32,000 bases of DNA from Geobacter sulfurreducens PCA (GTDB taxonomy: Bacteria; Desulfobacterota; Desulfuromonadia; Geobacterales; Geobacteraceae). Below the pieces are notes generated by a model that did no database searches, was not told the origin of the DNA, and saw nothing but the letters and a program-made list of their open reading frames with translations. Shown piece after piece: positions 3,968-30,946 of this stretch (position 1 is the stretch's first letter; every line of letters begins with the position of its first letter). The translations under genes were made by a program, and so were the position numbers. The stretch covers positions 3,300,001 to 3,332,000 of the forward strand of contig NC_002939.5 of assembly GCF_000007985.2 (NCBI RefSeq), in the 5' to 3' direction.

Positions 3968-3984
3968 CGGCGAGAAAATTGCAT
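3968..3984 (+). promoter_or_regulatory. Weak sigma54-like -24/-12 element upstream of the HDOD gene
   Basis: cGGCgagaaaaTTGCAt has correct GG-to-GC spacing relative to TGGCACG-N4-TTGCW and lies 53 nt upstream of ATG 4037. The -24 half is degenerate. Confidence 0.3.
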
Positions 3985-4036
3985 GACAAACTTGAACTAT
4001 TGTCGTCCGCTGTCGCTGACCACGAACAGGTGCCTA

Positions 4037-5081: not shown

Positions 5082-5462
5082 TCAGGCCTTTTCCCGGATA
5101 ATGAGCCCCTTGAGCTCGTCAAGCATCCTGGCGATCTTGAGCACCTCTTCCGCGGGGATCTGCCGGATCACCTCACCGCTTTCCCGTGCCAGGACCTTGA
5201 CGACCGTTCTGTTGGTGTCCTTGTCCACCGAGAATTCGAGATCACGGCTGACCGACTCGATGAACTCGTTGATCCGTTCAGTCGCCTCCTTGACCCGCTC
5301 CTCTTCGCTCTTGCCCTTGTCACTCTCCTTCTCGGGCTCACGAGCCTGCTCCACGGGCCGCGCCGCGCGCTTTTCCTCTTCATCCTGCCGTGACTTGGCC
5401 ACGATTGTCGGAACAACCGCAACCGCGGAAGGCCCTGTTCCACTGGTGGCTTCGATGTTCAT
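5082..5462 (-). CDS. flaG: Flagellar protein FlaG
   Basis: A 126-aa protein with an acidic/lysine-rich middle and a C-terminal LEFSVDKDTNRTVVKVLARESGEVIRQIPAEEVL block typical of the FlaG family. Confidence 0.85.
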   Translation of the reverse strand: MNIEATSGTGPSAVAVVPTIVAKSRQDEEEKRAARPVEQAREPEKESDKGKSEEERVKEATERINEFIESVSRDLEFSVDKDTNRTVVKVLARESGEVIRQIPAEEVLKIARMLDELKGLIIREKA

Positions 5463-5502
5463 GGCATCTCTCCCTGAAAATATAACACTCCCTATGACCT
5501 CA

Positions 5503-5528
5503 TATCGGATGACTGCAGGGAAACTTTA
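5503..5528 (-). promoter_or_regulatory. Sigma28 (FliA)-type promoter of flaG
   Basis: The minus strand reads TAAAGTTT-ccctgcagtca(11 nt)-tCCGATAT, compared with the enteric consensus TAAAGTTT-N11-GCCGATAA. It lies about 40 nt upstream of the flaG ATG. Confidence 0.65.
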
Positions 5529-5548: not shown

Positions 5549-5590
5549 AAAAAAACGAAGAGAGGAAGCCCGGTGCTCCCTCTCTTCGTT
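5549..5590 (-). terminator. Intrinsic terminator of the giant peptidase gene
   Basis: The minus strand forms a 12-bp stem, AACGAAGAGAGG ... CCTCTCTTCGTT, followed by a T5-7 run. It lies 30 nt after the stop at 5621. Confidence 0.75.
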
Positions 5591-5620: not shown

Positions 5621-8600
5621 CTATTGGATCGTCCAGACAGCCGTTGTCTCTACGGTCTGCCACGTGCCCCCAGCATTTTTGCCCAGCACCGAAAGCATAT
5701 GCGTTCCATCAGCAAGCCCCGCAAGACTCCGTGCCTGCGTAACGGGGATCTCGACTGACCAGACGCCATTGTCGAGCTTGTACTTGTAGGAAACCACGTA
5801 TGGTCCGCCGACGGTAAAGGTCGCCGTTGTCGCAGTGGTAGGATCAGCCGGAATACCATTGATGACGGCTGCCGGCTTTATCGTGAAGGATTGTGCCTTG
5901 ACCCCCTCGACGTTGCCTGCCTGATCGACAGCAAAGTATTTGAGGCTCTGGGTCGTACCGATGACGATCGGGCCGGTATATTTCGGCGAAGCCGTGGTCG
6001 GCGCCGCACCGTTGACAGTGTAGTAAATGGTGGCCGTCTCGCTGGAGTAAAGCTCTACGCTCTGGGCACTCGCATAGGTTCCGCCGGGCACCGAGGCGGT
6101 GGTCACCGGCGCGGAAATATCAACCGTCCACGCGACGGCAGTGGGCACATCCTGCCAGGTTCCGACCAGGTTTTTGCCAAGGACGGCAACCGCATGGGAA
6201 CCGGAGGCGAGGCCGGAAAGAACAATTTTCGTGGCAACCGGGGTTTCCGAAGACCAGGCGCCGCTATCGAGCTTCCACCTGTAGGCGACCACCCCGGTGC
6301 CGCCGACCGTGAGCGTCGCTGAGGTGGCACGGGAAAAAGTCGCCGGCGTCCCGGAAAGTACCGCGAGAGGAGACGGAGCATAAATTTCGGTTTTAACCGC
6401 CTCGGCGTTGCCGTGCTGATCAACGGCGAAGAACTTCAGGGTTTTGCCGGGGGCAACGGAGACAGGCGCCGCGTATTTGGACGAGGCGGTGGTCGGCGCG
6501 GCACCGGTGAGGGTGTAGTAGATGGTGGCCGTCTCATTGGCCGAGAGAGTTACCACCTGGGGCGCATCATAGGTGCCCCCCGCCGGCGAGGCACTGGTTA
6601 CAGGCGGCGCCACCTCGACGGTCCAGGAAGCTGTGGTCGCGTCGGCATTGGCCTGCCAGACGCCGGAACCATTCCTGCCGACCACGGAAACCGTGTGAGT
6701 TCCGGCAGCAAGACCGGCAAGGGAGATTTTGGTCGCCAGCGGCGTCTCGGCCGACCAGGCCCCGTTGTCGAGCTTGAACTTGTAGGCGGCAACACCGGAG
6801 CCGCCCACGGTCAGAGTGGCGCTCGTGAGCTTGGTTGTGCCGCCCGGTGCACCGGCCAGGGTTACGATGACGTAAGAGAAGGTCTTGACCGCCTCGACGT
6901 TCCCCGCCGTATCGATTGCGAAAAATTTCAGCGTTGACGTAGCATTAACGGTCAGCGGCGCGGTGTACTTGGCAGACGCGGTCGTGGGTGTTGTGCCGTT
7001 GGTCGTGTAGTAGACGGTGGCCGTCTCGTCGGGCGACAGCGTGACTGCCTGCCCCCCCTTGTAGACTCCGGCGGCAAGCGAGGCGGCCGTCGTGGGAGCA
7101 GTGAGGTCGACGATCCAGGACTTCGAGGAGGCAACCGACGTAGCCTGCCACGTGCCCGCCACGCTCTTCCCAATGACCGAGACGGTATGCGCCCCTTCCG
7201 AAAGGCCGGTTATGGCCGTTTTTGTCGCCACCGGGATCTCGGCGGACCAGGAGCCGCCGTCGAGCTTGTATTTATAGGCAACCACACCAACACCACCGAT
7301 GGTGAGCGTGACGGACGTAGCCTTGCTCGCAACAGGTACGCCGTTGATCACGGCCAACGGCGGAAGGGCGTAGCTCTGGGTCTTCACCGCCTCGGCATTG
7401 CCTGCGGGGTCAATGGCGAAGTACTTGAGGGTGGCGGTGGCCGGCAACGGAATCGGCCCGACATATTTGGCCGACGCGGTCGTGGGAGTCGTCCCGTTCG
7501 TCGTGTAGTAGATGGTGGCCGTCTCGTCGGCCGAAAGGTTTACGGTCTGGGGCGTCGCATAGGTCCCTCCCGCCGGTGATGCGGTGGTAACTGGAGGAGT
7601 TAGATCAACCGTCCACTGGACCGTGGTCGGGGCCTGATCATCCTGCCACCCGCCGGCGGCGTTCTTGGCAATGACATCCACCCTGTGGGCGCCGGCGGCA
7701 AGGCCGGTCAGTGCGATCTTGGTCGCAACCGGGGTTTCCGCCGACCACGCACCACCGTCCACACTCCGTTTGTAGGCTACCACTCCGCTCCCTCCCACCG
7801 TCAGGGTAGCGGTCGTGTACTTGGTCTTCGCTGCCGGTGTTCCGGCAATAATTGCCGTGACAGGCAAAGCGTAAATCTCGGTCTTCACCGCTTCCGCGTT
7901 GCCCGCCTGGTCCACGGCAAAGAACTTGAGCACCTTGGTCGGAGCAACCGTGATCGGGCCTGTATACTTTGCCGAAGAGGTCGTGGGTGCAAGGCCGGTG
8001 ATCGTATAGTAAATGGTCGCGGTCTCGTCCGCCGTCAGGGTGACGGTCTGGGATGCGGCATAGGTGCCGCCGGCAGGGGAGGCAGTGGTGGTCGGCGCGG
8101 TCTGCTCGACCGTCCAGCTGACAGCGGTCGGGGCTACCTGCCATACCCCTGCTGCGGTTTTGCCGATTACCGATACCGTGTGCAAACCGGTCCCAAGGGC
8201 GGTCAGGCTGATTTTGGTGGCAACCGGTATTTCGGCCGACAGTGCTCCGCCGTCAAGCGAGTATTTGTAGGCCGAGACACCGATGCCCGCCACCGTCAGG
8301 GTCGCGGTGGCAAGCTTCGTCGTGGTCGGAGGAGTCCCGCTGACCAGGGTGATGGTATAGATGTTTGTTTTTATCGCCTCCGCATTCCCGGCTTGGTCAA
8401 CGGCGAAGAATTTCAGGGTCGTGGACGTATTGATGGCCAGCGGAGCCGAGTACTTGGCCGACGCGGTGGTCGGCGTGGTCCCGTTCGTCGTGTAATAGAC
8501 GGTGGCGGTTTCACTGGCGGAGAGGCTCACTGTCTGGCCCGGCTTGTAGATCCCTGCGGCGAGTGACGCGGTTGTAACCGGAGCGGCAAGGTCCACCGTC

Positions 8601-9355
8601 CAGGAGGCGGTGGTCGCCGTCGTCTGCCAGGCGCCAAGCGCGTTTTTGGCAATCACGTCCACCGTGTGGGAGCCGGCGGCCAGCGCGGATAGGCTGATCT
8701 TCGTGGCAATTGGCGTTTCAGCCGACCAAGTGCCATTGTCGAGCCGGAATTTGTATGCAACGGCCGTAGCCCCCCCCACCGTGATGGCTGCGACCGTTGC
8801 CTTGGTCCTGGCGGCCGGCACACCTGTCAGCGCTGCCACGGGAGGAAGCTGGTAAACCAGGCTCTTCACTGCTTCCGCATTGCCGGCCTGATCCACGGCA
8901 AAAAACTTGAGTGTGGACGTGGGAGTCACCGTGATGGGCCCGCTGTACTGGGGCGAGGCGGTCGTCGGCGTTGTTCCATTGGTGGTGTAGTAAATGGTGG
9001 CGGTTTCACTGGAGGAAAGGGTCACGGTCTGGGCGGCGGCATAGGTCCCACCCGCCGGAGAGGCCGTCGTCACCGGCTTGATGGTGTCAACATCCCAGGA
9101 AACAGTGGTAGGCGAAGCCGTGGACTGCCAGTTTCCTGCGGCATCTTTGCCGACAACCGAAAGGGTATAGGAACCATTTACCAACCCCACGATATTCATG
9201 GAGGTCTTAACCGGGATCTCGGCCGACCAGGCACCGCTATTGATCTTGTACTTGTATGAAACGACGTCGCCGCCGTTCACGCCAAAGCCGAACGTGGTCG
9301 CCTTGGTCGGACCCGCCAGGGGGCTGTTGGCCACAACCACCGCCACCGGCGCAAC
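5621..9355 (-). repeat. In-frame tandem coding repeat of 7.5 units, 486-501 bp each (162-167 aa: Ig-like domain plus CHB_HEX_C-like domain)
   Basis: The conserved 24-mer encoding the (F/Y)FA(V/I)D block starts at 5921, 6416, 6908, 7406, 7907, 8393 and 8888. The spacings are 495, 492, 498, 501, 486 and 495 nt. The units are diverged at both protein and DNA level. Confidence 0.85.
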
Positions 9356-11098
9356 CGTGTCGAGGTCAATGGTATCGTAGTAGCTGGACGACTCGATCTG
9401 GAGGTTGTCCCGGAACTGGGCATAAACCGTCTTCTCGCCGTCGCTGGCAGGGATGGTCCAGCCGGTCCTGGTGGTTTTGTACGCTTCCCAGGCGCTCCAG
9501 GTGGCGTCATCGTTGCTGAAGCGCATCTGGGAGACCGGGTTGGCCCCGCCCCCCGCCGTGAGGTTCAGGGTAACGGTCGTAGAATTGGTGGCCGCGGCGC
9601 CGCCGTTGATCTTGACGGTCCCCGAGGGAGCAGCGGCGCCGATGCTGAACGCTGCCGTCACCTGGTTGCCGGAACGGGTGATATTGGTGACCGTGACACC
9701 GGTATTGAGCCCCCCGTAGCTCCTGCTCGACGGAACCGTGGCCGGACCGAAGGAAGCACCGGGAACGTAGTAGTCCCCCGCGTCGGCAGTGTTGTAGGAA
9801 AGGTTCTTCTCTATCTCCTCCAGGCCGTCGGCCTCCATGAGCCGCAGCAGTTTGCGGGCGGTGTCCGAATTGTTATAGAGGTAGTTGGTCCCGGAGGAGT
9901 TGAGTGTCGCATCCACATGCCAGATGAGGAGCCCGTCGTTGGGGTAGTGGACGTCGTTGCCGGCGCGGTGCCGGTTCTGGACCAGGAAATACTCGTCGAA
10001 GAGGTCGCTGGAGGTGATCCCCGGCATGATGAGGACCGCGTCGGTGGAGGTGGCGGAGGGGTTGAGGGTAATGGTCTGGGAGCCGCCGGCCACCACCACC
10101 GGGTCGATCCAGTCCAGAACCCACTTGCTGAAGGCGCTGTGGTCCCCCCAGTTGTGGTCCATCATGTCGAGGCCGCCAACCCCGCCCTTGGGTCCTGCAG
10201 TAGCACTGTAGTCGTAGTAGTCGGGAAGCCCCAGGGCATGGCCGGTCTCGTGAATCGTGACCAGGGGGCCGAACTGCTGACCGTAGGGGCTCCCCTCCCA
10301 CTGCCAGGAGTACTTGCCGAGGCGCTTCCCGTCGAGGAGATAGTTGAAGTCCGAAAACGAGGTGGCGTAGCCCCACCAGAACGATGCCCAGGGGCCGGCC
10401 GGCCCGGTCCAGATCACGAGGAAGTAGTCGATCTTGCCGTCGCTGTTGTTGTCGTACTGGGAGAAGTCGTGGCCCTGGGTATTAAAGTAGTTGAGGGCCT
10501 CCTTGATGAGGTTCTCGCGGCCGGCGGGCGTCTGGGTTACTGCACTCCGGCTGTAGCCGGGCCGGTACCACCCCAGCGTCGTCCCGCCGGAAAAATCGAG
10601 AAGGCCGTAGGATGAGCGGCTGTAGAATGCGGCGAGACTCTCGTAGGGGGCTTCGGCTGGGTTACCGGCGCCGAAGAGCTTGTCATGGACCGTGGCCTGG
10701 GGCGTTACGGCAGGGTAATCGGAGAAGTCGATGAGGAGGGCAAAGAGTTTCACGCTGCCAGTGGTGGGCATGCCGCTCCAGGCGGGAGGCGGTGCGTAGG
10801 CTCCCGCCATCTGGTCGGCCTCGTTTGCCGTGAACCCCTGCTGGCGGAGGGCTTTCTTCTTAGCCTTGTTGACGGCCCTCTTCACCAGCTCGGGATCAAT
10901 CTTGTGGTTGCCGATCTCCTCGGCGAACTTTTTCCGGTTCTCGAACTCGCCCGACTCCTTGAGCCGCTCGATCTCGCCCGGCTCCGGGAGTTGCATGGCC
11001 ACAGCCGCCCCCCCGAAGAGCAGCAGGGCAGAAACCACAACCACCAGTCCACCGCGCATTACAGCCAGCCGCCAAATCCCTCTCCCCCAACTTCCCAT
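5621..11098 (-). CDS. Giant secreted M6-family (immune inhibitor A-like) zinc metallopeptidase with 8 Ig-like and 7 chitobiase/hexosaminidase-C-like (CHB_HEX_C) tandem domains. It is 1825 aa from the chosen start.
   Basis: HETGHALGLPDYYD (HEXXH coded at 10238-10252) is in an InhA-like N-terminal region. The predicted Sec signal peptide is MGSWGRGIWRLAVMRGGLVVVVSALLLFGGAAVA/MQ. The motif ETATIYYTTNGTTPTTAS..Y.GPI...LKFFAVDQAGNAE recurs 7 times. The start is set at ATG 11098, 8 nt after GGAGG, because the ORF-track start 11236 lies upstream of the putative promoter. Confidence 0.85.
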   Translation of the reverse strand: MGSWGRGIWRLAVMRGGLVVVVSALLLFGGAAVAMQLPEPGEIERLKESGEFENRKKFAEEIGNHKIDPELVKRAVNKAKKKALRQQGFTANEADQMAGAYAPPPAWSGMPTTGSVKLFALLIDFSDYPAVTPQATVHDKLFGAGNPAEAPYESLAAFYSRSSYGLLDFSGGTTLGWYRPGYSRSAVTQTPAGRENLIKEALNYFNTQGHDFSQYDNNSDGKIDYFLVIWTGPAGPWASFWWGYATSFSDFNYLLDGKRLGKYSWQWEGSPYGQQFGPLVTIHETGHALGLPDYYDYSATAGPKGGVGGLDMMDHNWGDHSAFSKWVLDWIDPVVVAGGSQTITLNPSATSTDAVLIMPGITSSDLFDEYFLVQNRHRAGNDVHYPNDGLLIWHVDATLNSSGTNYLYNNSDTARKLLRLMEADGLEEIEKNLSYNTADAGDYYVPGASFGPATVPSSRSYGGLNTGVTVTNITRSGNQVTAAFSIGAAAPSGTVKINGGAAATNSTTVTLNLTAGGGANPVSQMRFSNDDATWSAWEAYKTTRTGWTIPASDGEKTVYAQFRDNLQIESSSYYDTIDLDTVAPVAVVVANSPLAGPTKATTFGFGVNGGDVVSYKYKINSGAWSAEIPVKTSMNIVGLVNGSYTLSVVGKDAAGNWQSTASPTTVSWDVDTIKPVTTASPAGGTYAAAQTVTLSSSETATIYYTTNGTTPTTASPQYSGPITVTPTSTLKFFAVDQAGNAEAVKSLVYQLPPVAALTGVPAARTKATVAAITVGGATAVAYKFRLDNGTWSAETPIATKISLSALAAGSHTVDVIAKNALGAWQTTATTASWTVDLAAPVTTASLAAGIYKPGQTVSLSASETATVYYTTNGTTPTTASAKYSAPLAINTSTTLKFFAVDQAGNAEAIKTNIYTITLVSGTPPTTTKLATATLTVAGIGVSAYKYSLDGGALSAEIPVATKISLTALGTGLHTVSVIGKTAAGVWQVAPTAVSWTVEQTAPTTTASPAGGTYAASQTVTLTADETATIYYTITGLAPTTSSAKYTGPITVAPTKVLKFFAVDQAGNAEAVKTEIYALPVTAIIAGTPAAKTKYTTATLTVGGSGVVAYKRSVDGGAWSAETPVATKIALTGLAAGAHRVDVIAKNAAGGWQDDQAPTTVQWTVDLTPPVTTASPAGGTYATPQTVNLSADETATIYYTTNGTTPTTASAKYVGPIPLPATATLKYFAIDPAGNAEAVKTQSYALPPLAVINGVPVASKATSVTLTIGGVGVVAYKYKLDGGSWSAEIPVATKTAITGLSEGAHTVSVIGKSVAGTWQATSVASSKSWIVDLTAPTTAASLAAGVYKGGQAVTLSPDETATVYYTTNGTTPTTASAKYTAPLTVNATSTLKFFAIDTAGNVEAVKTFSYVIVTLAGAPGGTTKLTSATLTVGGSGVAAYKFKLDNGAWSAETPLATKISLAGLAAGTHTVSVVGRNGSGVWQANADATTASWTVEVAPPVTSASPAGGTYDAPQVVTLSANETATIYYTLTGAAPTTASSKYAAPVSVAPGKTLKFFAVDQHGNAEAVKTEIYAPSPLAVLSGTPATFSRATSATLTVGGTGVVAYRWKLDSGAWSSETPVATKIVLSGLASGSHAVAVLGKNLVGTWQDVPTAVAWTVDISAPVTTASVPGGTYASAQSVELYSSETATIYYTVNGAAPTTASPKYTGPIVIGTTQSLKYFAVDQAGNVEGVKAQSFTIKPAAVINGIPADPTTATTATFTVGGPYVVSYKYKLDNGVWSVEIPVTQARSLAGLADGTHMLSVLGKNAGGTWQTVETTAVWTIQ

Positions 11099-11203
11099 GA
11101 CAGTACCTCCATACATCTGAATGGCCCCGTCCCTGGGAAGTATGCTTGACAAACACTCCAGCGGGAGAATCGTTGTTTTCCCATTATTTACATATATCGG
11201 CAG

Positions 11204-11230
11204 GTACGGAGAAAACTTTACATCTATTCG
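11204..11230 (-). promoter_or_regulatory. Near-consensus sigma28 (FliA) promoter of the giant peptidase gene
   Basis: The minus strand reads TAAAGTTT (11230-11223), tctccgtacct (11 nt), then GCCGATAT (11211-11204), compared with TAAAGTTT-N11-GCCGATAA. It lies about 100 nt upstream of ATG 11098. Confidence 0.7.
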
Positions 11231-11300
11231 ATTCAACGAAATCGATATCGAGGAACTACTCCAAGCTATTTAGGTGAACGCGGAGGAACTGACTAACCAA

Positions 11301-11316
11301 TGTCACAAAATTGACA
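11301..11316. promoter_or_regulatory. Inverted repeat TGTCA-N6-TGACA, a candidate transcription-factor or enhancer-binding site in the divergent control region
   Basis: TGTCAcaaaatTGACA has perfect 5-bp arms. The inner 14-mer GTCACAAAATTGAC resembles the FleQ box as I recall it (GTCaNTAAAtTGAC). A half-site AATTGACAC recurs at 11508-11516. Confidence 0.3.
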
Positions 11317-11550
11317 CAAGGCTAGACAAAGAGAAATACTCTCTCCCTCAATACCGAAGCATGCATTTTGTCTGAGGTCAGAACGTATAAGCGTTCAAGT
11401 CAGAATCAAAATTAGAGAAATCCCTCTAAAACAAACTACAAAACGGCGAGCCGCAATTATTTCGCCCCAACAGCATTCAACATTTTGACCCACAAAAGCA
11501 AAATCGCTAATTGACACGCAATTCTTGCAACTTACATCACACCAAGCCGT

Positions 11551-11566
11551 CGGCACGTAGGTTGCA
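11551..11566 (+). promoter_or_regulatory. Sigma54 (RpoN) -24/-12 promoter at the head of the glycosylation gene train
   Basis: cGGCACGtaggTTGCA matches TGGCACG-N4-TTGCW at all core positions except the first T. It lies 60 nt upstream of ATG 11626. An IHF-like ATTCAAcattTTG sits at 11475-11487. Confidence 0.55.
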
Positions 11567-11625
11567 GTCACTATTCCTGACAATATATCCTTGGACTAAT
11601 AGTCCACAACCCCGGAGAACCGACC

Positions 11626-11820: not shown

Positions 11821-11872
11821 CATCATTAGCGCGAAAACGAAAACTCCTTAAGTTTGCATGGAGGATATGTTC

Positions 11873-12631
11873 ATGGGTACATCAGGTATGCAATGCGAAA
11901 AGAAATTCCTGGATAAAGCATGCAGCACCTACAAAACTGCTGGCTCTTACCAGCAGCAGGCAATGAAGGACCTTATATTGCGGACTTTTTTGCCCTACAT
12001 GACAAACAATACAAAATCTGTATGTCTGTCTTTGGGATATGCTGAAGGGTATGAGGCTAAGATACTTTCCGAATGCGTGAAAGAACTTGATGTCATAGAA
12101 GGATCTCAGCAATTCTATGAACAAGGATTGGAAGACAACATCGCAAATGTTACACTCCACTATTCCTTATTTGAAGATTTTATACCTGAGAACAACAAAA
12201 AGTATGATTACATTTGTGCTAATTATGTGCTCGAACACGTTGAAAACGTTACCATTGTTCTGTCGTCTTTGAAAGAGATGCTTAAAGATGACGGATTGAT
12301 TTTTTCAGTTGTCCCCAATGCCCGAGCGTTTTCACGTCAACTTGCACTCCACATGGGCCTTATCGATGATCTTAAGGGCCTTACCGAAAACGACATCAAC
12401 CATGGACATAGGAGAGTGTACGATCGGGTAGCATTCAATCGCGATCTGGAAGGAGCCGGACTTTCAATAATCGCTCAAGGCGGTATAATGCTCAAACCCC
12501 TTGCGGATTTTCAGATGGACAAGCTCATTGATACTGGAATCCTCCAGACAGAACACCTCAACGGACTCTACAGGCTGGGAATGGAATATCCTGATTTTTG
12601 CAGTGCCTTATATGCCATTTGCAAAAAATAG
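11873..12631 (+). CDS. Class I SAM-dependent methyltransferase
   Basis: YDYICANYVLEHVENVTIVLSSLKEMLKDDGLIFSVVPN is a Methyltransf_11/23-like post-I/II region. The start is chosen at ATG 11873, 7 nt after GGAGGA; in-frame alternative ATGs are at 11858 and 11867. Confidence 0.75.
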   Translation: MGTSGMQCEKKFLDKACSTYKTAGSYQQQAMKDLILRTFLPYMTNNTKSVCLSLGYAEGYEAKILSECVKELDVIEGSQQFYEQGLEDNIANVTLHYSLFEDFIPENNKKYDYICANYVLEHVENVTIVLSSLKEMLKDDGLIFSVVPNARAFSRQLALHMGLIDDLKGLTENDINHGHRRVYDRVAFNRDLEGAGLSIIAQGGIMLKPLADFQMDKLIDTGILQTEHLNGLYRLGMEYPDFCSALYAICKK

Positions 12632-12671
12632 TATTTGTACACAGCTTGGTATTTTCAGGGATGGCGATTCA

Positions 12672-14630
12672 ATGAACAAGCGCAAGATCGATATGCTCAT
12701 GAAAGACTGCTATGAGCTGACTGTCACTGCCCTCACAATCAGAAAAGTTGAAGAACGTCTATTGGAGCTCTTTTCTGAAGGAGTACTCAACGGAACAATC
12801 CACACCTGTATCGGACAGGAGTGGACCGGAGTGGCGGTTGCAAACGCACTGCAAGCGGGAGATACAGTTTTCTCCAATCACCGCGGTCATGGACATTATA
12901 TTGCCCTGACTGGTGATGTTTATGGACTTATCGCAGAAATCATGGGCAAAGACGACGGTGTCTGCGGAGGCGTTGGAGGTAGCCAGCATCTACATACAGA
13001 AAACTTCTTCTCTAACGGGATTCAAGGCGGAATGGTGCCGGTCGCGGCTGGAAGAGCCTTGGCAAACGCGCTTCAAGGCAACAATGCAATTTCAGTGGTT
13101 TTTATCGGAGATGGAACTCTTGGAGAAGGTGTTATCTATGAAACGTTTAACATCGCATCCAAATGGCAGTTGCCACTGTTAGTTGTCCTGGAAAACAATC
13201 AGTACGCTCAGTCCACACCCACATCCCTGACATTGGCAGGCAATATACGGGACCGCGTACGTGGCTTCGGCATAGAATATATCAAGTGTGACACATGGGA
13301 CATCGCCGGGCTGCTTGACTCTGCAAAAGAGGCCGTTGATTGCGTACGCAAGAACCAAAAGCCTGTATTGCTCGAAATTGATACATACCGGCTGAAAGCC
13401 CACTCGAAGGGAGATGATCTTAGAGACCCTGTAGAGATCAGCCGCTACGCTGGGCAGGACAGCATAAATGCTCTACTGGAATCTGACGTTCCAAGAGTCG
13501 CTGAAACCGTCAATCAAATCGACAGCAATATCCAACAGGCAATCACCAAAGCCAGGGAAGCGACATTATGTTCTTTCGCTCCGGCATCGAACAGTGTTCG
13601 ACAGTATCAATCAGTTACGTGGAGAACTGAATCCTTTGCCAGACAAAGAATAATCACCTCAATCAATTTATCATTGCAATCGCTTCTGGAAAACAACTCT
13701 AAGGCAGTAATTATCGGGGAGGACATTGAAGCCCCCTACGGAGGAGCTTTCAAAGCCACAAAGGATCTGAGTACGTTGTTCCCGGGAAGAGTCAAGAACA
13801 CCCCCATCAGCGAGGGAGCGATTACAGGCGTAGGCATCGGTCTGGCACTGAGCGGATTTCTTCCCGTTGTGGAGATAATGTTCGGCGACTTCATGACTCT
13901 AACCTTTGACCAACTGCTTCAACACGCCGGTAAATTCTGTGAGATGTATGGCAAGGATCTCGACGTACCCTTGATCATTCGCACTCCCATGGGCGGACGT
14001 CGGGGTTATGGCCCAACACACAGCCAATCTTTGGAGAAATTTTTTCTCGGCATACCGAATCTGGAGGTCATTGCGTACAACCATAGAGTTTCTCCCGCCC
14101 TGATCTTTGGAAATCTGTGCAAGACGATCCGCAGGCCAACTCTCATCATCGAAAACAAGGTCCTCTATACTCAGCACGTAGACAGTACTCCCATGCCTGG
14201 ATTCCGCATCAATATTTCCGACGAACTATTCCCAACCGTCAGAATATCGCCAAGTACCGGAGATCCGCAAGTGACGCTTGTCTGTTACGGGGGAATGCTT
14301 GCGGAGGTTGAGATAGCCGCAGCCGCGGCTTTCGACGAAAACGAAATACTCTGCGAGATCATATGTCCGAGCATTATCAATCCTCTCAATGCATACCCCA
14401 TTCTTGAGTCGGCACGGAAAACCAGGAGGCTGATAACCGTAGAAGAAGGACCGAGCATAGCCGCCCTGGGCAGCGAGGTAGCCGCCCGAATACTTGAACA
14501 TTCGCTTCCCATTGCCCATTACAGTCGTATCGGTTACGACTCTACCATTCCATCATCAGCCAGCCGTGAATCCAGATTGATAACAAATGCCGAATCAATC
14601 TTTGAACGTATTGTGGAGATTTTCAAATGA
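12672..14630 (+). CDS. Single-chain TPP-dependent 2-oxoacid dehydrogenase E1 component (fused alpha and beta subunits)
   Basis: The alpha half has HTCIGQEW...NHRGHGHYIA and the TPP motif GDG (13107-13115)...ENN (13191-13199). The beta half has AVIIGEDIEAPYGGAFKATKDL...NTPISEGAITGVGIGLALSGFLPVVEIMFGDF. The start at ATG 12672 avoids overlap with the upstream gene. Confidence 0.85.
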   Translation: MNKRKIDMLMKDCYELTVTALTIRKVEERLLELFSEGVLNGTIHTCIGQEWTGVAVANALQAGDTVFSNHRGHGHYIALTGDVYGLIAEIMGKDDGVCGGVGGSQHLHTENFFSNGIQGGMVPVAAGRALANALQGNNAISVVFIGDGTLGEGVIYETFNIASKWQLPLLVVLENNQYAQSTPTSLTLAGNIRDRVRGFGIEYIKCDTWDIAGLLDSAKEAVDCVRKNQKPVLLEIDTYRLKAHSKGDDLRDPVEISRYAGQDSINALLESDVPRVAETVNQIDSNIQQAITKAREATLCSFAPASNSVRQYQSVTWRTESFARQRIITSINLSLQSLLENNSKAVIIGEDIEAPYGGAFKATKDLSTLFPGRVKNTPISEGAITGVGIGLALSGFLPVVEIMFGDFMTLTFDQLLQHAGKFCEMYGKDLDVPLIIRTPMGGRRGYGPTHSQSLEKFFLGIPNLEVIAYNHRVSPALIFGNLCKTIRRPTLIIENKVLYTQHVDSTPMPGFRINISDELFPTVRISPSTGDPQVTLVCYGGMLAEVEIAAAAAFDENEILCEIICPSIINPLNAYPILESARKTRRLITVEEGPSIAALGSEVAARILEHSLPIAHYSRIGYDSTIPSSASRESRLITNAESIFERIVEIFK

Positions 14631-15742
14631 TGAAAACAATGGACATAATCATTCCCAGAGAATTTGTCAGCGACGACCAGTACCTGCTCCAGAAACTCTG
14701 TGTCGTGAACAATGACTTTGTAAAAGAAGGAGAGATACTTGCCCTGATCGAATCATCAAAATCTGTCATTGACGTTACGAGTCCGGCTGATGGCTATGTC
14801 TATTTTTTCTCTGACGAAGGAGACATTGTGAGTGTCGGCGAGAGGTTGGCCTTGCTCGCATCAACCAAGGAGGCATTACAGGTTGAAATAGAGAATTCCA
14901 ACAAGAACTCTCAGCGTCGCAAGGAGAGTGAGACAAAGAGCGAGGACGTTTCATTGTCTGGCGTGAGGTGCTCCAAGAAGGCATTGCTTCTGATGAAACA
15001 GCACAATATCGATGTAGGAGCATTTGATGGTCTCGGGATGGTTACGGCGCAGGACGTAGAGCACTATCTCTCCAGCAGGGAAAAAGCCGTTAAAGCGACA
15101 GTAGCTCCATCTTCCGTAAATAGGCAGAAAATCATCATCCTTGGTGGCGGAGGACATTCAAAAGTATGCATAGACATACTGCGCCAGGCACAATCTTTCA
15201 CAATCGCAGGAATTCTCGACTCTATCCAGGACATTGGCGCAGAAGTGCTGGGAATCCCGGTCATTGGAAGAGACACAATGCCGGAACTACTCAAGACCAG
15301 AGAGAGTGGCATCTCCCTTGCGGTTAACGGGATTGGACTCATTCCGGATCACCGGAACAGATGCAAGCTTTTTGAGAGGCTATTGGAGGCCGGCTTTCAT
15401 CTCCCTAACCTCATACACCCCAAGGCATCAATCGAACCTTCGGCAAAACTCGGCGAAGGGAACCAGATCATGGCAGGAGCCATTATCGGGAGCGATGTCA
15501 CAGTAGGAAACTACTGTCTCATAAACTCGGGAGTCGTCGTCTCGCACGACTGTATCATCGACGACCACGTCCACCTGGCCCCCGGTGCGCTGCTTGCAGG
15601 AGCAGTCAGAGTTGGAAGAAACTCTTTGATCGGCATGGGCGTTACAATCTACGCAAAAGTAACAATAGGAAGCAACGTAGTTATAGCCAACGGCGCCAAC
15701 GTGTTTCACGATGTGCCGGACAACACCGTCGTCAAGATTTGA
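14627..15742 (+). CDS. Fusion protein: lipoyl-attachment domain, then peripheral-subunit-binding domain, then NeuD/PglD-family left-handed beta-helix sugar N-acyltransferase
   Basis: aa 5-80 carry GEILALIESSKSVIDVTSPADGYV, with the candidate lipoyl-Lys45 codon at 14759-14761. aa 112-148 read KKALLLMKQHNIDVGAFDGLGMVTAQDVEHYL. aa 167-371 carry KIIILGGGGHSKVCIDIL...IHPKASIEPSAKLGEGNQIMAGAIIGSDVTVGNYCLINSGVVVSHDCIIDDHVHLAPGA... hexapeptide repeats. There is an ATGA overlap with the E1 stop. Confidence 0.82.
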   Translation: MMKTMDIIIPREFVSDDQYLLQKLCVVNNDFVKEGEILALIESSKSVIDVTSPADGYVYFFSDEGDIVSVGERLALLASTKEALQVEIENSNKNSQRRKESETKSEDVSLSGVRCSKKALLLMKQHNIDVGAFDGLGMVTAQDVEHYLSSREKAVKATVAPSSVNRQKIIILGGGGHSKVCIDILRQAQSFTIAGILDSIQDIGAEVLGIPVIGRDTMPELLKTRESGISLAVNGIGLIPDHRNRCKLFERLLEAGFHLPNLIHPKASIEPSAKLGEGNQIMAGAIIGSDVTVGNYCLINSGVVVSHDCIIDDHVHLAPGALLAGAVRVGRNSLIGMGVTIYAKVTIGSNVVIANGANVFHDVPDNTVVKI

Positions 15743-15757
15743 CGTAATGGTTGCCAA

Positions 15758-16948
15758 ATGAATATGAACCCTAATGCAAGTTTCGACAATATGACTGAAT
15801 CCAGCGCCCCCCCTTCATTCAAGGAAAAACTCCACGTTGGGCGCCCCAATGTCGGCAATCGGGAAGCACTTCTTGCCCGCATCAACGACATGCTCGACCG
15901 CCGTTGGCTCACCAATAACGGTCCTTTTGTCCAAGAGCTCGAGCAAAAAATGAGTGAGTTTCTCGGCGTTCGAAACTGCATCGCCATGTGCAATGCAACC
16001 ATCGCCCTCGAGATCACCACCCGGGCACTCGGCATGAGCGGCGAGGTGATAGTGCCTCCGTTCACTTTCGTGGCGACCGCTCACGCTTTGCAATGGCAGG
16101 AGATAACCCCCGTATTCTGCGACATCGACCCGACGACCCACCATATCGATCCCAAGAAGATCGAATCAATGATCACGCCCCGCACAACCGGCATCGTCGG
16201 AGTTCATCTCTGGGGACGCCCTTGTGCAGTCAACACCCTTACGGAGATAGCAGCAAAACATAAGTTAAAACTTATCTTCGACGCGGCTCACGCTTTCGGC
16301 TGCTCGCACGGCGGCCGAATGATAGGCGGCTTCGGCGACGCAGAGGTGTTCAGCTTCCATGCCACCAAGTTCTTCAATACCTTCGAGGGGGGACTCGTCG
16401 CAACCGACAATGACGAGTTGGCCCAGAAGATCAGGCTCATGAAGAACTTCGGCTTCGAGGGTTACGACAACGTCATCTATATTGGCACCAACGGCAAAAT
16501 GACGGAGATCTGCGCGGCCATGGGGCTCACGAACCTTGAAAGCCTCGACGAGTTCATCCAGACCAACCACACCAACTATTACCGTTATCGTCAGGGGCTC
16601 TCCGGGCTGCCGGGCGTGTCGGTGATTGAGTACAACGAGGCCGAACGGAACAATTATCAATACGTGGTACTGGAGATCGACGAGAAGATGGCGGGAGTAT
16701 CCAGAGATCGTTTGGTAGAGGCACTCCATGCGAAAAACGTCATCGCCCGGAGGTATTTCTACCCAGGCTGCCACCGGATGGAACCGTATCGCTCGTACTT
16801 TCCACACTCACGGCTGCTCCTGCCGAAGACAGAAAGATTGGCGAGACGGGTCATGCTGCTGCCGACGGGCACGGCAGTCGAACTGGAGCATATTGATGCA
16901 ATCTGCGTTCTCATAAAACGAATCATCAACGGCTCCATACTCTCCTAG
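15758..16948 (+). CDS. DegT/DnrJ/EryC1/StrS-family PLP-dependent sugar aminotransferase
   Basis: NATIALEI, FDAAHAFG and FSFHATKFFNTFEGG (PLP lysine) motifs in a 396-aa protein. Sugar specificity cannot be determined by eye. Confidence 0.9.
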   Translation: MNMNPNASFDNMTESSAPPSFKEKLHVGRPNVGNREALLARINDMLDRRWLTNNGPFVQELEQKMSEFLGVRNCIAMCNATIALEITTRALGMSGEVIVPPFTFVATAHALQWQEITPVFCDIDPTTHHIDPKKIESMITPRTTGIVGVHLWGRPCAVNTLTEIAAKHKLKLIFDAAHAFGCSHGGRMIGGFGDAEVFSFHATKFFNTFEGGLVATDNDELAQKIRLMKNFGFEGYDNVIYIGTNGKMTEICAAMGLTNLESLDEFIQTNHTNYYRYRQGLSGLPGVSVIEYNEAERNNYQYVVLEIDEKMAGVSRDRLVEALHAKNVIARRYFYPGCHRMEPYRSYFPHSRLLLPKTERLARRVMLLPTGTAVELEHIDAICVLIKRIINGSILS

Positions 16949-16972
16949 ACATGAAACAGGAATAGCCACGTT

Positions 16973-19900
16973 ATGATCTGTCACATTGCTTTCGAAAGCG
17001 ACTACTCTTTCGCGCTACACAACCTGCTCTTGAAACACTTCGATATCAACGAGCATATTTTTCTGATATGCGGCAGAGCCTCATGGGATTCGACGAAACA
17101 ATTTCAATACAGAAACAGCGTTAAGGTCGCAGACCTGAACTCTCAGGAAGTCCGGCGACTCCTCTGCGAGTCGGAACAGATTATTATTCATGGCTTATTT
17201 TTCGGGGAAGTGGTCGACTACTTTCACCGCAACCAGGATCTTCTGCCCAAGACCAGTTGGAAGCTCTGGGGCGGCGACCTTTACTGTTACAGGAATGCAG
17301 GAACGACAGACTTTCCTGCTGAATATGAGGAGAAAAGGAGACAGGTCATCCGGAACTTCGGTCGGATAATCTGTGTCTTAGAGGAGGATTATCAACTCGC
17401 CCGACAGGTATACGACACCAAGGCCACCCGTGCACATGGGTTCTACCCGTTGCTGCTCAATTACGACTACCTTGATTCGCTACGAAAACCTCGCGCTCCG
17501 TCGGAGATAATCACCGTTCAAGTCGGCAACTCTGCAACACGCGAAAACTGCCACGAAGAAGCATTCGAACACCTCATCCATCTCGACAACGACAACATGA
17601 GAGTCTGCTGTCCCCTCTCCTACGGTGACAAATCCTATGGCAACGAGATTATTCGGTTGGGGATGAAACTGTTCGGAAGTCGGTTCTGCCCCCTGACCGA
17701 TGTTCTCCCATTCAAGGAGTATTCCGACCACCTCAGCTCAGTTGATGTCGCCGTTATGAACCACAACCGTCAGCAAGGGCTCGGCAACACAGTAGCGTTG
17801 TTGTATCTCGGCAGGAAAGTATATATGCGGCATGACACGACGTCCTACAGTTGGCTGATGAAACACGGAATCACCGTCTACGATATGCGGAATTTGGGGC
17901 ATGCTTCATTTGCCGAGTTTTCGCATATTGAAGAGGATGTGGCGGCGCGAAACACAGAGATCATCGGCAGGGAATTCTCGGACGATGCATGCGTAAAGCT
18001 ATGGAAGTCAATTTTCAGCTCAAAGGGAAGACAATCTAAGATGACGGTACCGAATGAGAAGGGTTCACTAATTCAAAAACTCAAGCACCAATATTTCCCC
18101 GGCTCCAACTTCGTAGGCCCTTACGAGCAAAACGGCCACGCCCCATCCATCTATGAAGAGCAGTGGCTGTGGGCACATCGCCATCTGATCAAAGGAACCG
18201 TCCTTGACATGTCCACACCCCGTTATTGGCACGAATTCATTCATACCATGGAATCGGTTTCTCGTGTCGTCATCAGCGAGATGGGATGCGACACCGTAAC
18301 CAAATACGGCAAGAGCTCATCGGTAGACATAGTAGCCGATTTCTGCGATCCGAATCTGCCAGTGGCTCCGGAAACGTTCGACACCATCCTCTGCCTGAGC
18401 ATCCTGGAACACTGCACCAATCCCTTGTCCATGGTAAATAATCTTTACAAGTTACTCCGCCCCGGAGGCACCGTTTTCTTCTGGGCACCCTTCGCCTACA
18501 TCGATGGGCACCTTGAGCCTGACTATTGGCGTTTCGGGCGTGACGGCTTCCGTCTTCTGGTCAAACAGGCTGGGTTTGAAATCATGGAAGAAGGAAACTT
18601 CGGGGACCTCGGAAAATATTTCCTCCAAGAATTTGGATTTGATGCATCAGCACGGAACGGTCATCGTGGTGTGCCCTGCGCCAACTGGATTATCTGCAAA
18701 AAACCGCAGGATACCAGGACCCTCCCCAAGCCTACACATGGGATCTCGACGAGCGCGGGGAACTCACCCCTCCGCCTTTACGCCGGCGACATCCCCAACC
18801 GCCCCGAGTACGAAGGCTGGCTCGGCCTCTCGCTAACCCAGGAAAACGACCGCCATATCCGGCACGACATCACCCGACCCCTTCCCTTCGCCGACAACTC
18901 GGTGGACGCTTTCCAGGCTGAAGATGTGCTGGAGCATATCGCCTATGACCGGATCGTCCCCGTTCTTAACGAAATCCATCGTGTACTCAAACCGGGCGCA
19001 GTGTTCCGGCTCTCCGTCCCCGACTATCGTTGCGATATCCTTGACGCCAGAACGGAAAAGGACGCAACGGGAGCGCCCGTCTTCGATCCCGGCGGAGGAG
19101 GTACCAGAGAAAATCCGGGGCACGCCTGGTTCCCCCGCTACGAGACGGTTAAGACCCTGGTCGAAAAATCTAATTTTGGAACAGCGGGAGAAATTTCATT
19201 CCTTCACTACTACGACGAGCATAACCTTCCGGCGATGCGGGAGATCGACTATGCGAAGGGATTTATTCAGAGGCCCCCGGACCACGACCCGCGGGTGCAA
19301 ACACCCTACCGTCCGATGTCTCTAGTCGTAGACCTGACAAAAAGAGACGTAAGAATATTTTCTTCATTCAACAACTCCGCATCTCACGCGAATACGAATG
19401 TTGGCGGCACCGATGCTCACTCCATCGCCGAAACCGCAAGCCGAATATTGCAGGCGGGTGAAAAGCTCTATTCTGAAGGATACACCGCAGATGCAGAGGG
19501 ATGCTTCAACGCTCTCCTCGTCATGCAAGAGCCGCTTGCCACCGCCCACAACAATCTTGGCGTAATCCACCAGGGCCGCCATGAACTCGATAACGCTCTT
19601 GAACACTTCAGATCAGCACTGGCCCTCATGCCGTCACATCGGGAGGCACGTGAAAACATCAAAGCCACCCTTTCATCTGAAAGCATCTATCCCTATGAGG
19701 GGAATCGGTCCAGATCCAATCATTACAATGAAGACTACTTCAATTGGCAAAAGAACATCGGTGCGTTCGGCGGAAGAGCCAACCTCTTTAAGTTCAGCGA
19801 ATTCATAACACCTTCCGACACTATACTCGACTTCGGCTGCGGAGAAGGATATCTCCTCTCAAACATCACCTGTGCAAGGAAGATCGGAGTAGAACTGAAC

Positions 19901-27549: not shown

Positions 27550-27568
27550 GAAGGCAGAACGGTTGGCC

Positions 27569-30919: not shown

Positions 30920-30946
30920 TAAAGTTTTCCGGTCCGCGGCCGAAAC
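30920..30946 (+). promoter_or_regulatory. Sigma28 (FliA)-type promoter of flbD-motA
   Basis: TAAAGTTT (30920-30927), tccggtccgcg (11 nt), then GCCGAAAC (30939-30946), compared with TAAAGTTT-N11-GCCGATAA. It starts 2 nt after the GT9 stop codon and lies 38 nt upstream of the flbD ATG. Confidence 0.6.

What the first reader, a model, noticed from the sequence alone, without database searches (positions are those of the whole stretch)
5621..11230. A giant secreted M6 metallopeptidase under a near-perfect sigma28 promoter, sitting in the flagellin slot upstream of flaG
**Seen in sequence.**
- TAAAGTTT-N11-GCCGATAT (11230-11204, minus strand) precedes a 1825-aa ORF.
- The ORF has a Sec-type signal peptide, an InhA-like HEXXH domain (HETGH at 10238-10252) and 15 beta-sandwich domains.
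- It is terminated by a strong hairpin (5549-5590), and flaG follows immediately with its own sigma28 promoter.

**Established knowledge.** Sigma28 promoters drive late flagellar genes (flagellin, flaG, mot and che genes), and fliC-flaG is a common gene order. Enzymatically active flagellins (flagellinolysins) show that proteolysis can be coupled to flagella.

**Inference.** This protease may be co-regulated with motility, for example as a secreted or surface matrix-degrading enzyme deployed when cells swim. It may even be a substrate of the adjacent glycosylation machinery, since each repeat carries a T/S-rich YYTTNGTTPTTAS stretch.
Basis: partly seen in the sequence, partly recalled or inferred. 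Interest (0 to 1): 0.72.

Follow-up and report, generated by a model that had tools for sequence, protein, structure and literature searches.

The report
Flagellar-sigma-driven secreted M6 protease beside flaG
Next to the flagellar gene flaG, Geobacter sulfurreducens encodes a very large secreted zinc protease behind a promoter of the type used for late flagellar genes, and relatives keep a protease of this family beside flaG, so it is probably an optional, motility-co-regulated enzyme and not a stand-in for flagellin.

Summary
The window is Geobacter sulfurreducens PCA, and by my inference the ORF is GSU3016. It spans 11098-5621 (minus strand, 1825 aa) and is already annotated as an M6-family metalloprotease.

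- **Protein.** It has a Sec-like leader and an InhA-like catalytic domain (NCBIfam TIGR03296 191 bits; best fold match InhA2). Then come one extra beta domain and 15 alternating beta-sandwich modules: 8 Y_Y_Y-like and 7 CHB_HEX_C_1.
- **Promoter.** The same box type precedes flaG and flbD-motA in this window.
- **New comparative evidence.** Relatives keep an M6 protease beside flaG in three arrangements and two distant forms (about 26% identity). Each copy has its own sigma28-like box. A degenerate version of the box hit about 200 kb of related loci 17 times, only upstream of flaG, flbD or M6 genes.
- **Dispensable.** The gene is a relic or absent in several close relatives.
- **Not supported.** No Geobacter-lineage relative has flagellin in this slot. 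The 'glycosylation stretch' is the conserved core of the CHB_HEX_C_1 domain.

Verdict: a likely FliA-regulon accessory protease, comparable to Bacillus subtilis Epr. Its target is unknown and nothing has been tested experimentally.

The parts
11194..11220 (-). Sigma28 (FliA)-type promoter box of the protease gene: TAAAGTTT-N11-GCCGATAT
   Evidence: unique in the window, 0 expected by chance. The boxes are conserved in orthologues while the spacer and flanks diverge.
11099..11193 (-). Predicted 5' leader of about 90 nt, with SD GGAGG 7 nt before the ATG
   Evidence: The -10-to-ATG distance is 89-99 nt in PCA, AM-1, L105 and KN400-type genes. A CCCA-G-A-GGG block and the SD/ATG are conserved. 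The TSS is inferred, not measured.
5621..11098 (-). M6-family metalloprotease gene (GSU3016 by inference; GenBank AAR36408.1), 1825 aa
10997..11098 (-). Sec-type signal peptide, residues 1-34, cleavage predicted after AVA
   Evidence: Sequence reading. Family conservation starts after this point. There is no Cys, so no lipobox. Not run through SignalP.
9917..10738 (-). InhA-like M6 catalytic domain, residues 121-394, with HETGHALGLPD at 10220-10252
   Evidence: TIGR03296 191 bits; profile hit to 4yu5; Foldseek best match 4yu6; H283, E284, H287 and D293 are invariant in 48 homologues.
9350..9916 (-). Post-catalytic beta region plus one Ig-like domain, residues 395-583
   Evidence: AlphaFold strands over residues 334-486; weak match to the T9SS M6-like family over residues 386-534.
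5624..9349 (-). Tail of 15 beta-sandwich modules: 8 Y_Y_Y-like (A) alternating with 7 CHB_HEX_C_1/Fn3_assoc (B), period about 165 aa, no C-terminal sorting signal
5549..5590 (-). Intrinsic terminator of the protease gene (17-bp stem followed by T7)
   Evidence: -32.5 kcal/mol, z = -4.7. It is retained next to the gene relic in L097.
5502..5528 (-). Sigma28-type promoter of flaG: TAAAGTTT-N11-TCCGATAT. The sequence shared by all strains starts within about 3 nt upstream of this box.
5082..5462 (-). flaG (GSU3015 by inference, AAR36407.1)
   Evidence: Pfam FlaG 96 bits.
30920..30946 (+). Third sigma28-type box, TAAAGTTT-N11-GCCGAAAC, upstream of flbD-motA (motB follows beyond the window end)
   Evidence: flbD is identified by Pfam; motA and motB follow.
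11858..30918 (+). Strain-variable sugar-modification and glycosyltransferase island between the protease and flbD. It is context, not shown to act on the protease.
   Evidence: GC is 46-53% over 11-21 kb, against about 62% for the protease gene. Its content differs between strains.

Best explanation
GSU3016 encodes a Sec-exported, InhA-like (M6) zinc metalloprotease carried on a long stalk of Ig-like modules. It is transcribed as its own unit (sigma28 promoter, about 90-nt leader, ORF, strong terminator) by FliA-RNA polymerase, together with the late flagellar genes flaG and flbD-motAB. It is therefore an accessory, dispensable member of the Geobacter flagellar regulon, made when cells build flagella and acting on proteins outside the cytoplasm.

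**Shown**
- The fold and an intact active-site motif.
- The promoter boxes and their conservation.
- Recurrent linkage to flaG.
- Loss of the gene in some strains.

**Inferred**
- FliA dependence.
- Export beyond the periplasm.
- Proteolytic activity.
- The target. My leading guess is extracellular or matrix proteins, or flagellar-export products such as FlgM or surplus flagellin, by analogy with B. subtilis Epr.

In the PCA laboratory strain, whose flagellar master regulator fgrM is interrupted, the gene should be nearly silent.
For: **Protease**
- TIGR03296 scores 191 bits against a cut-off of 110.8.
- The HEXXHXXGXXD motif is intact, with ligand residues invariant across 48 homologues.
- The family profile hits InhA 4yu5. 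The AlphaFold model (pLDDT 85) best matches InhA2 4yu6 at E=1.7e-14.

**Export**
- Signal-peptide features are present.
- The tail resembles the beta-sandwich tails of secreted proteases and adhesins: SiiE, ColG PKD, PrtV PKD.

**Sigma28 control**
- The window holds three boxes with a perfect TAAAGTTT and an 11-nt spacer. All are intergenic and correctly oriented, before GSU3016, flaG and flbD. None is expected by chance.
- PCA, AM-1 and L105 upstream regions share little apart from the -35, the -10, a leader block and the SD/ATG.
- G. anodireducens-type loci keep the boxes with a changed spacer.
- The unrelated-looking KN400-type M6 gene and its 64%-identical orthologue in a Desulfuromonadales MAG also carry sigma28-like boxes.
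- A degenerate motif hit about 200 kb of Geobacter-lineage loci 17 times, every hit upstream of flaG, flbD or an M6 gene, against 0.1 expected.
- The motif found nothing in two loci where M6 homologues lie outside flagellar contexts.

**Linkage to flaG, in three arrangements**
- M6 then flaG on the same strand: PCA, AM-1, L184-186.
- M6 divergent from flaG: KN400, CP072789, L102.
- flaG then M6 on the same strand: L105.

**Background from papers**
- fliA (GSU3053) exists in this genome (PMC2725144).
- PCA is non-motile because fgrM is interrupted, whereas KN400 is motile (PMC4579418; PMC3495685).
- B. subtilis Epr is an extracellular protease in the SigD regulon, implicated in swarming. With WprA it degrades secreted FlgM (PMC8767453).
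Against: - No transcript, TSS or proteomic data for GSU3016 could be found. The gene is not mentioned in the main text of any held paper. Two supplements searched had nothing. The FgrM microarray paper and the G. sulfurreducens TSS map are not held.
- The gene is dispensable. It is reduced to relics in L092-L097, split in L185, and absent from G. metallireducens-like loci L098 and L187.
- The KN400-type and L102 boxes deviate from consensus by 3-4 positions. The degenerate motif was widened after seeing them, so that statistic is partly circular.
- The independent lineages are few (about 4-5) and all lie within one order.
- Pfam's own M6 model is below threshold.
- The substrate and the final location are unknown. 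There is no anchoring or sorting signal.
Confidence: 0.62

Rival explanations
1. Dedicated flagellar partner. The protease acts specifically on flagellar-export products, working with FlaG. Candidate substrates are secreted FlgM, FlaG itself, unpolymerised flagellin or glycosylated flagellin. The effect would be to tune filament length or number, or to sharpen the FliA switch. This is a narrower version of the best explanation.
For: - Adjacency to flaG is kept through three different gene arrangements and by two M6 forms only about 26% identical.
- In L105 the flaG-M6 pair is not embedded in a sugar island as in PCA, so the link is to flaG and not to the sugar genes.
- Precedent: Epr and WprA degrade secreted FlgM in B. 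subtilis (PMC8767453).
- Weak lead: InhA abundance depends on FliK in B. thuringiensis (PMC12109265).
Against: - Several flagellated-lineage relatives keep flaG but have lost the protease, so it cannot be required for flagellar assembly.
- Nothing in the sequence points to a flagellar substrate.
- The closest M6 homologues elsewhere are not in flagellar loci.
- No M6 gene lies near flaG in 80 genome loci and 78 other metagenome loci from other taxa.
Confidence: 0.15
2. Incidental promoter. The gene is island cargo expressed by other means, such as the housekeeping sigma factor or stationary-phase control. The sigma28-like box would be non-functional or only a weak contributor.
For: - The gene sits in a strain-variable region next to low-GC, evidently transferred sugar genes.
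- It is frequently lost.
- Homologues elsewhere have no flagellar link.
- There is no experimental expression data.
Against: - The box is a 15-of-16 match to TAAAGTTT-N11-GCCGATAA, with 0 expected.
- It is preserved while the flanks diverge.
- Its spacing to the ATG is similar in four gene versions.
- The promoter scan found no sigma70-like site on the gene's strand upstream of it.
- The protease gene itself has native-like GC of about 62%.
Confidence: 0.15
3. Glycoprotein substrate. The T/S-rich repeats are O-glycosylated by the adjacent island, making the protein a glycosylated surface fibre.
For: - It lies close to the sugar and glycosyltransferase island.
- The tail is 16.6% Thr and 8.1% Ser.
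Against: - The cited stretch is the conserved core of the CHB_HEX_C_1 domain, covered by full-length Pfam matches.
- The island differs between PCA and AM-1 although the protease is 94% identical.
- In L105 the gene pair is flanked directly by flbD-motAB and HDOD, not by sugar genes.
- Glycosylation cannot be tested with these tools.
Confidence: 0.05

Closest known systems
Bacillus subtilis Epr (extracellular protease of the SigD regulon)
   Same: - A secreted protease placed under the flagellar alternative sigma factor (the sigma28 family).
- It is non-essential for flagellar assembly.
- It is linked to motility behaviour and, with WprA, to degradation of secreted FlgM (PMC8767453).
   Different: - Epr is a subtilisin-type serine protease (S8) in a Gram-positive organism and is also controlled by SinR, ScoC, Spo0A and DegU.
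- The Geobacter protein is an M6 zinc protease with a 15-module tail. It is physically linked to flaG, and its regulation is only predicted.
Immune inhibitor A (InhA1/InhA2 of Bacillus; MEROPS M6) and Vibrio cholerae PrtV
   Same: - The catalytic fold and the HEXXHXXGXXD zinc site.
- Secreted enzymes with C-terminal beta-sandwich modules. The PrtV PKD domain is among the structural matches of the tail module.
   Different: - Only about 13% identity to InhA2 in the structural alignment, and Pfam PF05547 is below threshold.
- The tail is made of Y_Y_Y-like and CHB_HEX_C_1 modules.
- I know of no sigma28 control or flagellar-locus position for InhA or PrtV. That statement rests on my own knowledge and was not tested.
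Flagellinolysins (enzymatically active flagellins)
   Same: Both couple a zinc peptidase with the flagellar system.
   Different: - Flagellinolysins are flagellins with a peptidase inserted in the variable region, and they leave the cell through the flagellar export apparatus.
- This protein has no flagellin domains and carries a Sec leader.
Class III (FliA-dependent) flagellar promoters, consensus TAAAGTTT-N11-GCCGATAA
   Same: A 15-of-16 match with the canonical spacer. The same motif precedes flaG and flbD-motA in the same window.
   Different: It drives a non-flagellar, Sec-exported enzyme. FliA dependence has not been measured.

Membership tests
Peptidase family M6 / NCBIfam TIGR03296 (InhA-like metalloprotease domain) | Score above the curated threshold of the family model | tested here: met
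   TIGR03296 scores 191.3 bits against a cut-off of 110.8, covering profile positions 2-286 of 286.
Peptidase family M6 / NCBIfam TIGR03296 (InhA-like metalloprotease domain) | Pfam PF05547 Peptidase_M6 gathering score | tested here: not met
   19.3 bits against 22, matching only the active-site stretch. TIGR03296 was, to my recollection, built to be broader than PF05547, so this places the protein in a distant subfamily.
Peptidase family M6 / NCBIfam TIGR03296 (InhA-like metalloprotease domain) | Zinc-binding and catalytic motif HEXXH with a downstream Asp ligand (HEXXHXXGXXD) | tested here: met
   HETGHALGLPD at residues 283-293. H283, E284, H287 and D293 are invariant in 48 homologues.
Peptidase family M6 / NCBIfam TIGR03296 (InhA-like metalloprotease domain) | InhA-like three-dimensional fold | tested here: met
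   The AlphaFold model (pLDDT 85.2) best matches PDB 4yu6 (InhA2 zymogen) at E=1.7e-14, probability 1.0, TMq 0.58. The sequence profile hits 4yu5 at E=1.2e-6.
Peptidase family M6 / NCBIfam TIGR03296 (InhA-like metalloprotease domain) | Zinc-dependent endopeptidase activity | not testable with these tools
   Needs purified protein.
FliA (sigma28) regulon / late flagellar promoters | -35 TAAAGTTT and -10 GCCGATAA elements with a spacer of about 11 nt, upstream of the gene and in the correct orientation | tested here: met
   11220-11194, 15 of 16 positions matching, 0 expected by chance.
FliA (sigma28) regulon / late flagellar promoters | The same motif upstream of accepted late flagellar genes of the same organism | tested here: met
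   flaG at 5528-5502 and flbD-motA at 30920-30946.
FliA (sigma28) regulon / late flagellar promoters | Conservation of the elements in orthologues | tested here: met
   Seen in AM-1, L184-186 and L105 for the PCA-type gene. KN400 and L102 carry weaker boxes for the second type.
FliA (sigma28) regulon / late flagellar promoters | Transcription that depends on FliA, with a TSS just downstream of the -10 element | not testable with these tools
   No accessible transcript data.
Flagellin / flagellinolysin | N- and C-terminal flagellin D0/D1 domains and no Sec leader | tested here: not met
   No Flagellin_N or Flagellin_C hit in Pfam. A Sec-like leader is present. tblastn with a flagellin N-domain finds nothing in the Geobacter-lineage loci.
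CHB_HEX_C_1 / Fn3_assoc repeat proteins | Pfam PF13290 and PF13287 above their gathering scores | tested here: met
   Seven full-length matches each, 486.6 and 328.1 bits.
Substrates of flagellin-type O-glycosylation islands | Demonstrated glycan on Ser/Thr that depends on the island's transferases | not testable with these tools
   Only proximity is available. The cited T/S stretch is a conserved domain core.

The most novel reading that the evidence does not exclude
In the Geobacter lineage, an extracellular M6 protease and FlaG form a conserved two-gene module of the late flagellar regulon. The protease would degrade products released by the flagellar export apparatus (FlgM, FlaG or flagellin). 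It would thereby set filament length or number, or lock in FliA activity. Under this reading, two very different M6 proteases have been retained or recruited for the same job.
Probability: 0.15. Interest if true: 0.7.

Novelty: new member of a known kind. Interest (0 to 1): 0.45.

Why it matters
- **A testable lead in a model organism.** Geobacter sulfurreducens is the model organism for extracellular electron transfer, and its flagella act as biofilm scaffolds. A large secreted protease switched on with flagella could remodel the matrix or outer-surface proteins when cells turn motile. It has so far gone unnoticed.
- **A strain difference worth tracking.** PCA, AM-1 and KN400 carry different versions of the protease. 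Other strains carry only relics. This could contribute to strain differences in biofilm and surface behaviour.
- **A wider regulon.** It adds a Gram-negative, metalloprotease example to the short list of proteases placed under the flagellar sigma factor.
- **A handle on FlaG.** The conserved pairing gives an experimental way in to the poorly understood protein FlaG.

Tried and rejected
- **Genome-contig scan with FlaG.** It returned only distant FlaG loci (49% identity or less) and no Geobacter. It was useless for synteny in relatives but served as a control: flagellin lies upstream of flaG in 70 of 80 loci, and none has an M6 gene.
- **Literature.**
  - GSU3016 and GSU3015 appear in no held main text.
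  - The Ueki 2012 FgrM paper and the Qiu 2010 TSS paper are not held.
  - The CsrA and KN400 paper supplements contain no GSU3015-3017 entries.
- **Single-sequence PDB search.** It hit only the snapalysin active-site motif. The family profile was needed to reach InhA.
- **Comparing the tails of the two M6 types.** The profile-profile comparison was inconclusive (hhalign probability 15%, E=0.0018). Both hit Y_Y_Y-type models only weakly.
- **AlphaFold on one A-B repeat unit.** It gave a confident A module but failed on the CHB_HEX_C_1 module (pLDDT about 40).
- **Rfam.** It found nothing in the leader or the intergenic regions of the locus.
- **Flagellinolysin idea.** Rejected, because there are no flagellin domains.
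- **M35 as the true start (as called in AM-1).** Rejected, because the upstream ATG with its SD is conserved and M35 has no SD.


Full report
**Identity of the locus.**
- Exact-sequence look-ups place the window in Geobacter sulfurreducens PCA. The large ORF is AAR36408.1, 'metalloprotease domain protein, M6 family'. The next gene is FlaG, AAR36407.1.
- GSU3014 is the HDOD phosphohydrolase beside flaG (PMC11934962). From that I infer flaG = GSU3015 and the protease = GSU3016.
- On one side lie HDOD, engB and cobU/cobT.
- On the other side lies a methyltransferase, sugar-modification and glycosyltransferase island. It is followed by flbD and the start of motA at the window end, with motB just beyond it.
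- fliA is GSU3053 and the other flagellar operons are GSU3040-3056 (PMC2725144). The window is therefore the edge of the large flagellar region.

**Checking the observation.**
- The ORF runs from the ATG at 11098 to the stop at 5621 (1825 aa), with GGAGG 7 nt upstream.
It is the only such match in the window, with none expected in shuffles.
- HETGH is at 10238-10252 as stated.
- The terminator at 5590-5549 folds at -32.5 kcal/mol, z = -4.7.
- flaG has its own box, TAAAGTTT-N11-TCCGATAT, at 5528-5502.

**The protein.**
- Pfam's Peptidase_M6 model is below threshold (19.3 bits against 22). The broader NCBIfam model TIGR03296 matches end to end at 191 bits against a cut-off of 110.8, over residues 121-394.
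- More than 1000 homologues exist. The best is 64% identical over the N-terminal region, and their C-terminal domains vary.
- A 48-sequence alignment shows H283, E284, H287 and D293 of HETGHALGLPD to be invariant. Its profile reaches InhA 4yu5 at E=1.2e-6.
- The AlphaFold model (pLDDT 85) has B. anthracis InhA2 as its best PDB match, at E=1.7e-14 and TMq 0.58.
- The leader has a basic n-region, a 17-residue hydrophobic core and an AVA|MQ site. Family conservation begins immediately after it. The protein contains no cysteine, so it is not a lipoprotein.
- After the catalytic region and one extra beta domain comes the tail. It has 8 Y_Y_Y-like modules alternating with 7 CHB_HEX_C_1/Fn3_assoc modules, at a period of about 165 aa.
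- The Y_Y_Y-like module is modelled confidently. It resembles SiiE BIg domains, the BT4663 Y_Y_Y domain, and the PKD domains of ColG and of the M6 protease PrtV.
- There is no C-terminal anchor or sorting signal.
- The 'YYTTNGTTPTTAS' stretch lies inside the full-length Pfam CHB_HEX_C_1 matches and is the most conserved part of that module. It is not a linker that suggests glycosylation.

**The promoter in context.**
- A scan for TAAAGTTT-N10-12-GCCGATAA with mismatches found three sites with a perfect -35 and an 11-nt spacer. All are intergenic and correctly oriented: before GSU3016, before flaG and before flbD-motA (30920-30946, GCCGAAAC).
- Two of the three drive accepted late flagellar genes. 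This defines the local FliA promoter, and the protease promoter is the closest of the three to consensus.

**Comparison between strains and species.** Contexts of identical or related FlaG proteins were retrieved, together with a metagenome scan.
- **PCA-like contigs, AM-1 (CP010430) and G. anodireducens-type contigs.**
  - They carry the same protease upstream of flaG; AM-1 is 94% identical.
  - The AM-1 upstream region is heavily diverged with indels. It still keeps the -35, the -10 (spacer 12), a leader block and the SD/ATG.
  - G. anodireducens-type loci keep both boxes with a changed spacer.
- **KN400 (CP002031) and CP072789.**
  - They have a different gene in the slot, on the opposite strand, encoding 1265 aa. 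It is also an M6-domain protein: TIGR03296 150 bits, HEMGH, a signal peptide and seven triple-tyrosine-type repeats.
  - It is only 25.6% identical to the PCA catalytic region.
  - The box TCAAGTTT-N11-ACCGAAAA lies 89 nt before its start.
- **A Desulfuromonadales MAG (GCA_003712145.1).**
  - Its FlaG is 57% identical, and it shares the flaG-HDOD-engB-cobUTS synteny.
  - It has a 64%-identical orthologue of the KN400-type gene, divergent from flaG, with a weaker box.
- **Metagenome contig MTLE01001750 (L105).**
  - Its FlaG is 50% identical.
  - It carries a PCA-type protease, 80% identical in the catalytic region, 1343 aa, with four CHB_HEX_C_1 modules.
  - The protease lies downstream of flaG, between flaG and HDOD, with the box ACAAGTTT-N11-GTCGATAT 99 nt before its start.
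  - flbD-motAB abut flaG directly on the other side. PseB/DegT-like sugar genes lie only beyond flbD-motAB and a PilZ gene.
- **Other close relatives (FlaG 89% identical).**
  - Some have only relics: short fragments of KN400-type repeats (L092-L096).
  - L097 has the last 306 residues of the PCA-type gene with its terminator.
  - One G. anodireducens assembly has the gene split into two ORFs.
  - G. metallireducens-like loci have no M6 gene.
- **Island boundary.** The sequence shared by all strains begins within about 3 nt upstream of the flaG -35 box.

**Specificity controls.**
- A degenerate motif covering all these boxes matched about 200 kb of Geobacter-lineage loci 17 times. Every match was directly upstream of flaG, flbD or an M6 gene, against 0.1 expected from Markov shuffles.
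- The motif was widened after seeing the weaker boxes, so this measures specificity and is not an unbiased test.
- The motif found nothing in two loci where close M6 homologues sit outside flagellar contexts.
- No M6 domain lies within 10 kb of flaG in 80 genomes of other taxa. Among 80 metagenome flaG loci, only L105 has one.
- In 70 of those 80 unrelated genomes, flagellin is directly upstream of flaG. In no Geobacter-lineage locus is it.

**Interpretation.**
- The protease is a self-contained unit of promoter, about 90-nt leader, ORF and terminator. It very probably belongs to the FliA regulon.
- The linkage to flaG survives three rearrangements and involves two very different M6 proteins. 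This argues for a functional tie to the late flagellar programme and against chance placement.
- Repeated loss shows that the gene is accessory.
- The protease gene has native-like GC (about 62%). The neighbouring sugar genes are 46-53% GC and differ between strains. Together with L105, this ties the protease to flaG and not to the glycosylation island.
- PCA lacks flagella because fgrM is interrupted (PMC4579418; PMC8844916). The gene is therefore expected to be poorly expressed in the standard laboratory strain. That expectation is an inference.
- The nearest functional precedent is B. subtilis Epr. It is an extracellular protease in the SigD regulon, linked to swarming, and with WprA it degrades secreted FlgM (PMC8767453).
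- The target of the Geobacter enzyme is unknown. Candidates are matrix or surface proteins, or flagellar-export products.

**Verdict.**
- The sequence observation is confirmed with small corrections.
- The sigma28 inference is strengthened by comparative evidence.
- The 'flagellin slot' is true as a general positional statement, but fliC never occupies it in this lineage.
- The glycosylation-substrate idea has no support.
- The gene itself is already annotated.
- What is new is the predicted FliA control and the recurrent M6-flaG pairing. I found this in no held paper.
- It is a new member of a known kind, namely non-flagellar secreted enzymes placed under the flagellar sigma factor. Interest is moderate.

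Noticed in passing
L087:5848-9645 (-) (G. sulfurreducens KN400, CP002031.1); also L089: KN400 carries a different 1265-aa M6-domain protein in the flaG-adjacent slot. It has HEMGH, a signal peptide and seven roughly 100-aa triple-tyrosine repeats, lies on the opposite strand, and has a sigma28-like box at L087:9759-9733. It has no Pfam annotation on record.
   Followed up: yes
window 11000-21000, versus L087, L088, L089, L092-L097: The sugar-biosynthesis and glycosyltransferase island between flaG and flbD has low GC (46-53% against about 62%). Its gene content differs in nearly every strain examined. This looks like a hypervariable, horizontally exchanged, flagellin-glycosylation-type island.
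   Followed up: partly
L097:8920-9837; L092-L096:9553-9924; L185:985-6305: There are decayed copies of the protease genes. L097 holds a C-terminal 306-aa relic of the PCA type. L092-L096 hold short relics of KN400-type repeats. One G. anodireducens assembly has the gene split into 554-aa and 1219-aa ORFs.
   Followed up: partly
window 11626-11820 (+): A 64-aa ORF resembles the N-terminal Rossmann stub of a Gfo/Idh/MocA oxidoreductase (Pfam 19 bits, below threshold). It is probably a recombination scar at the island border; L097 has an intact gene of that family nearby.
   Followed up: partly
window 2971-3195 (-): A cobalamin riboswitch (Rfam RF00174, 117.7 bits) lies upstream of cobU-cobT.
   Followed up: no
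window 3929-4891 (+) (GSU3014, HDOD/HD protein): This gene converges on flaG. It is reported as strongly down in a csrA mutant and up in a fliW mutant (PMC11934962, PMC13407953). So a neighbour of flaG responds to the flagellar CsrA-FliW checkpoint.
   Followed up: no
window 12501-15742 (+): The island holds a fused E1 (alpha plus beta) thiamine-dependent dehydrogenase. The next gene encodes a protein combining a lipoyl-attachment domain with a PglD-like N-terminal domain and a hexapeptide acyltransferase. This is an unusual pairing that suggests an acyl group made from a 2-oxo acid is transferred onto an amino sugar.
   Followed up: no
window 16973-27549 (+): Two giant multi-domain proteins occupy this stretch. 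One is 1124 aa (GT56-like plus several methyltransferase domains plus TPR). The other is about 2400 aa (several GT1/GT2/GT4 domains plus a long TPR region). The N-terminal part of the second differs between strains, while the C-terminal TPR part and the downstream genes are shared (L084 against L085).
   Followed up: no
L105:4382-14810 (MTLE01001750.1): In this relative the gene order is PseB/DegT-like sugar genes, PilZ, motB-motA-flbD (divergent), flaG, M6 protease, then HDOD. There is no sugar island between flaG and flbD.
   Followed up: yes
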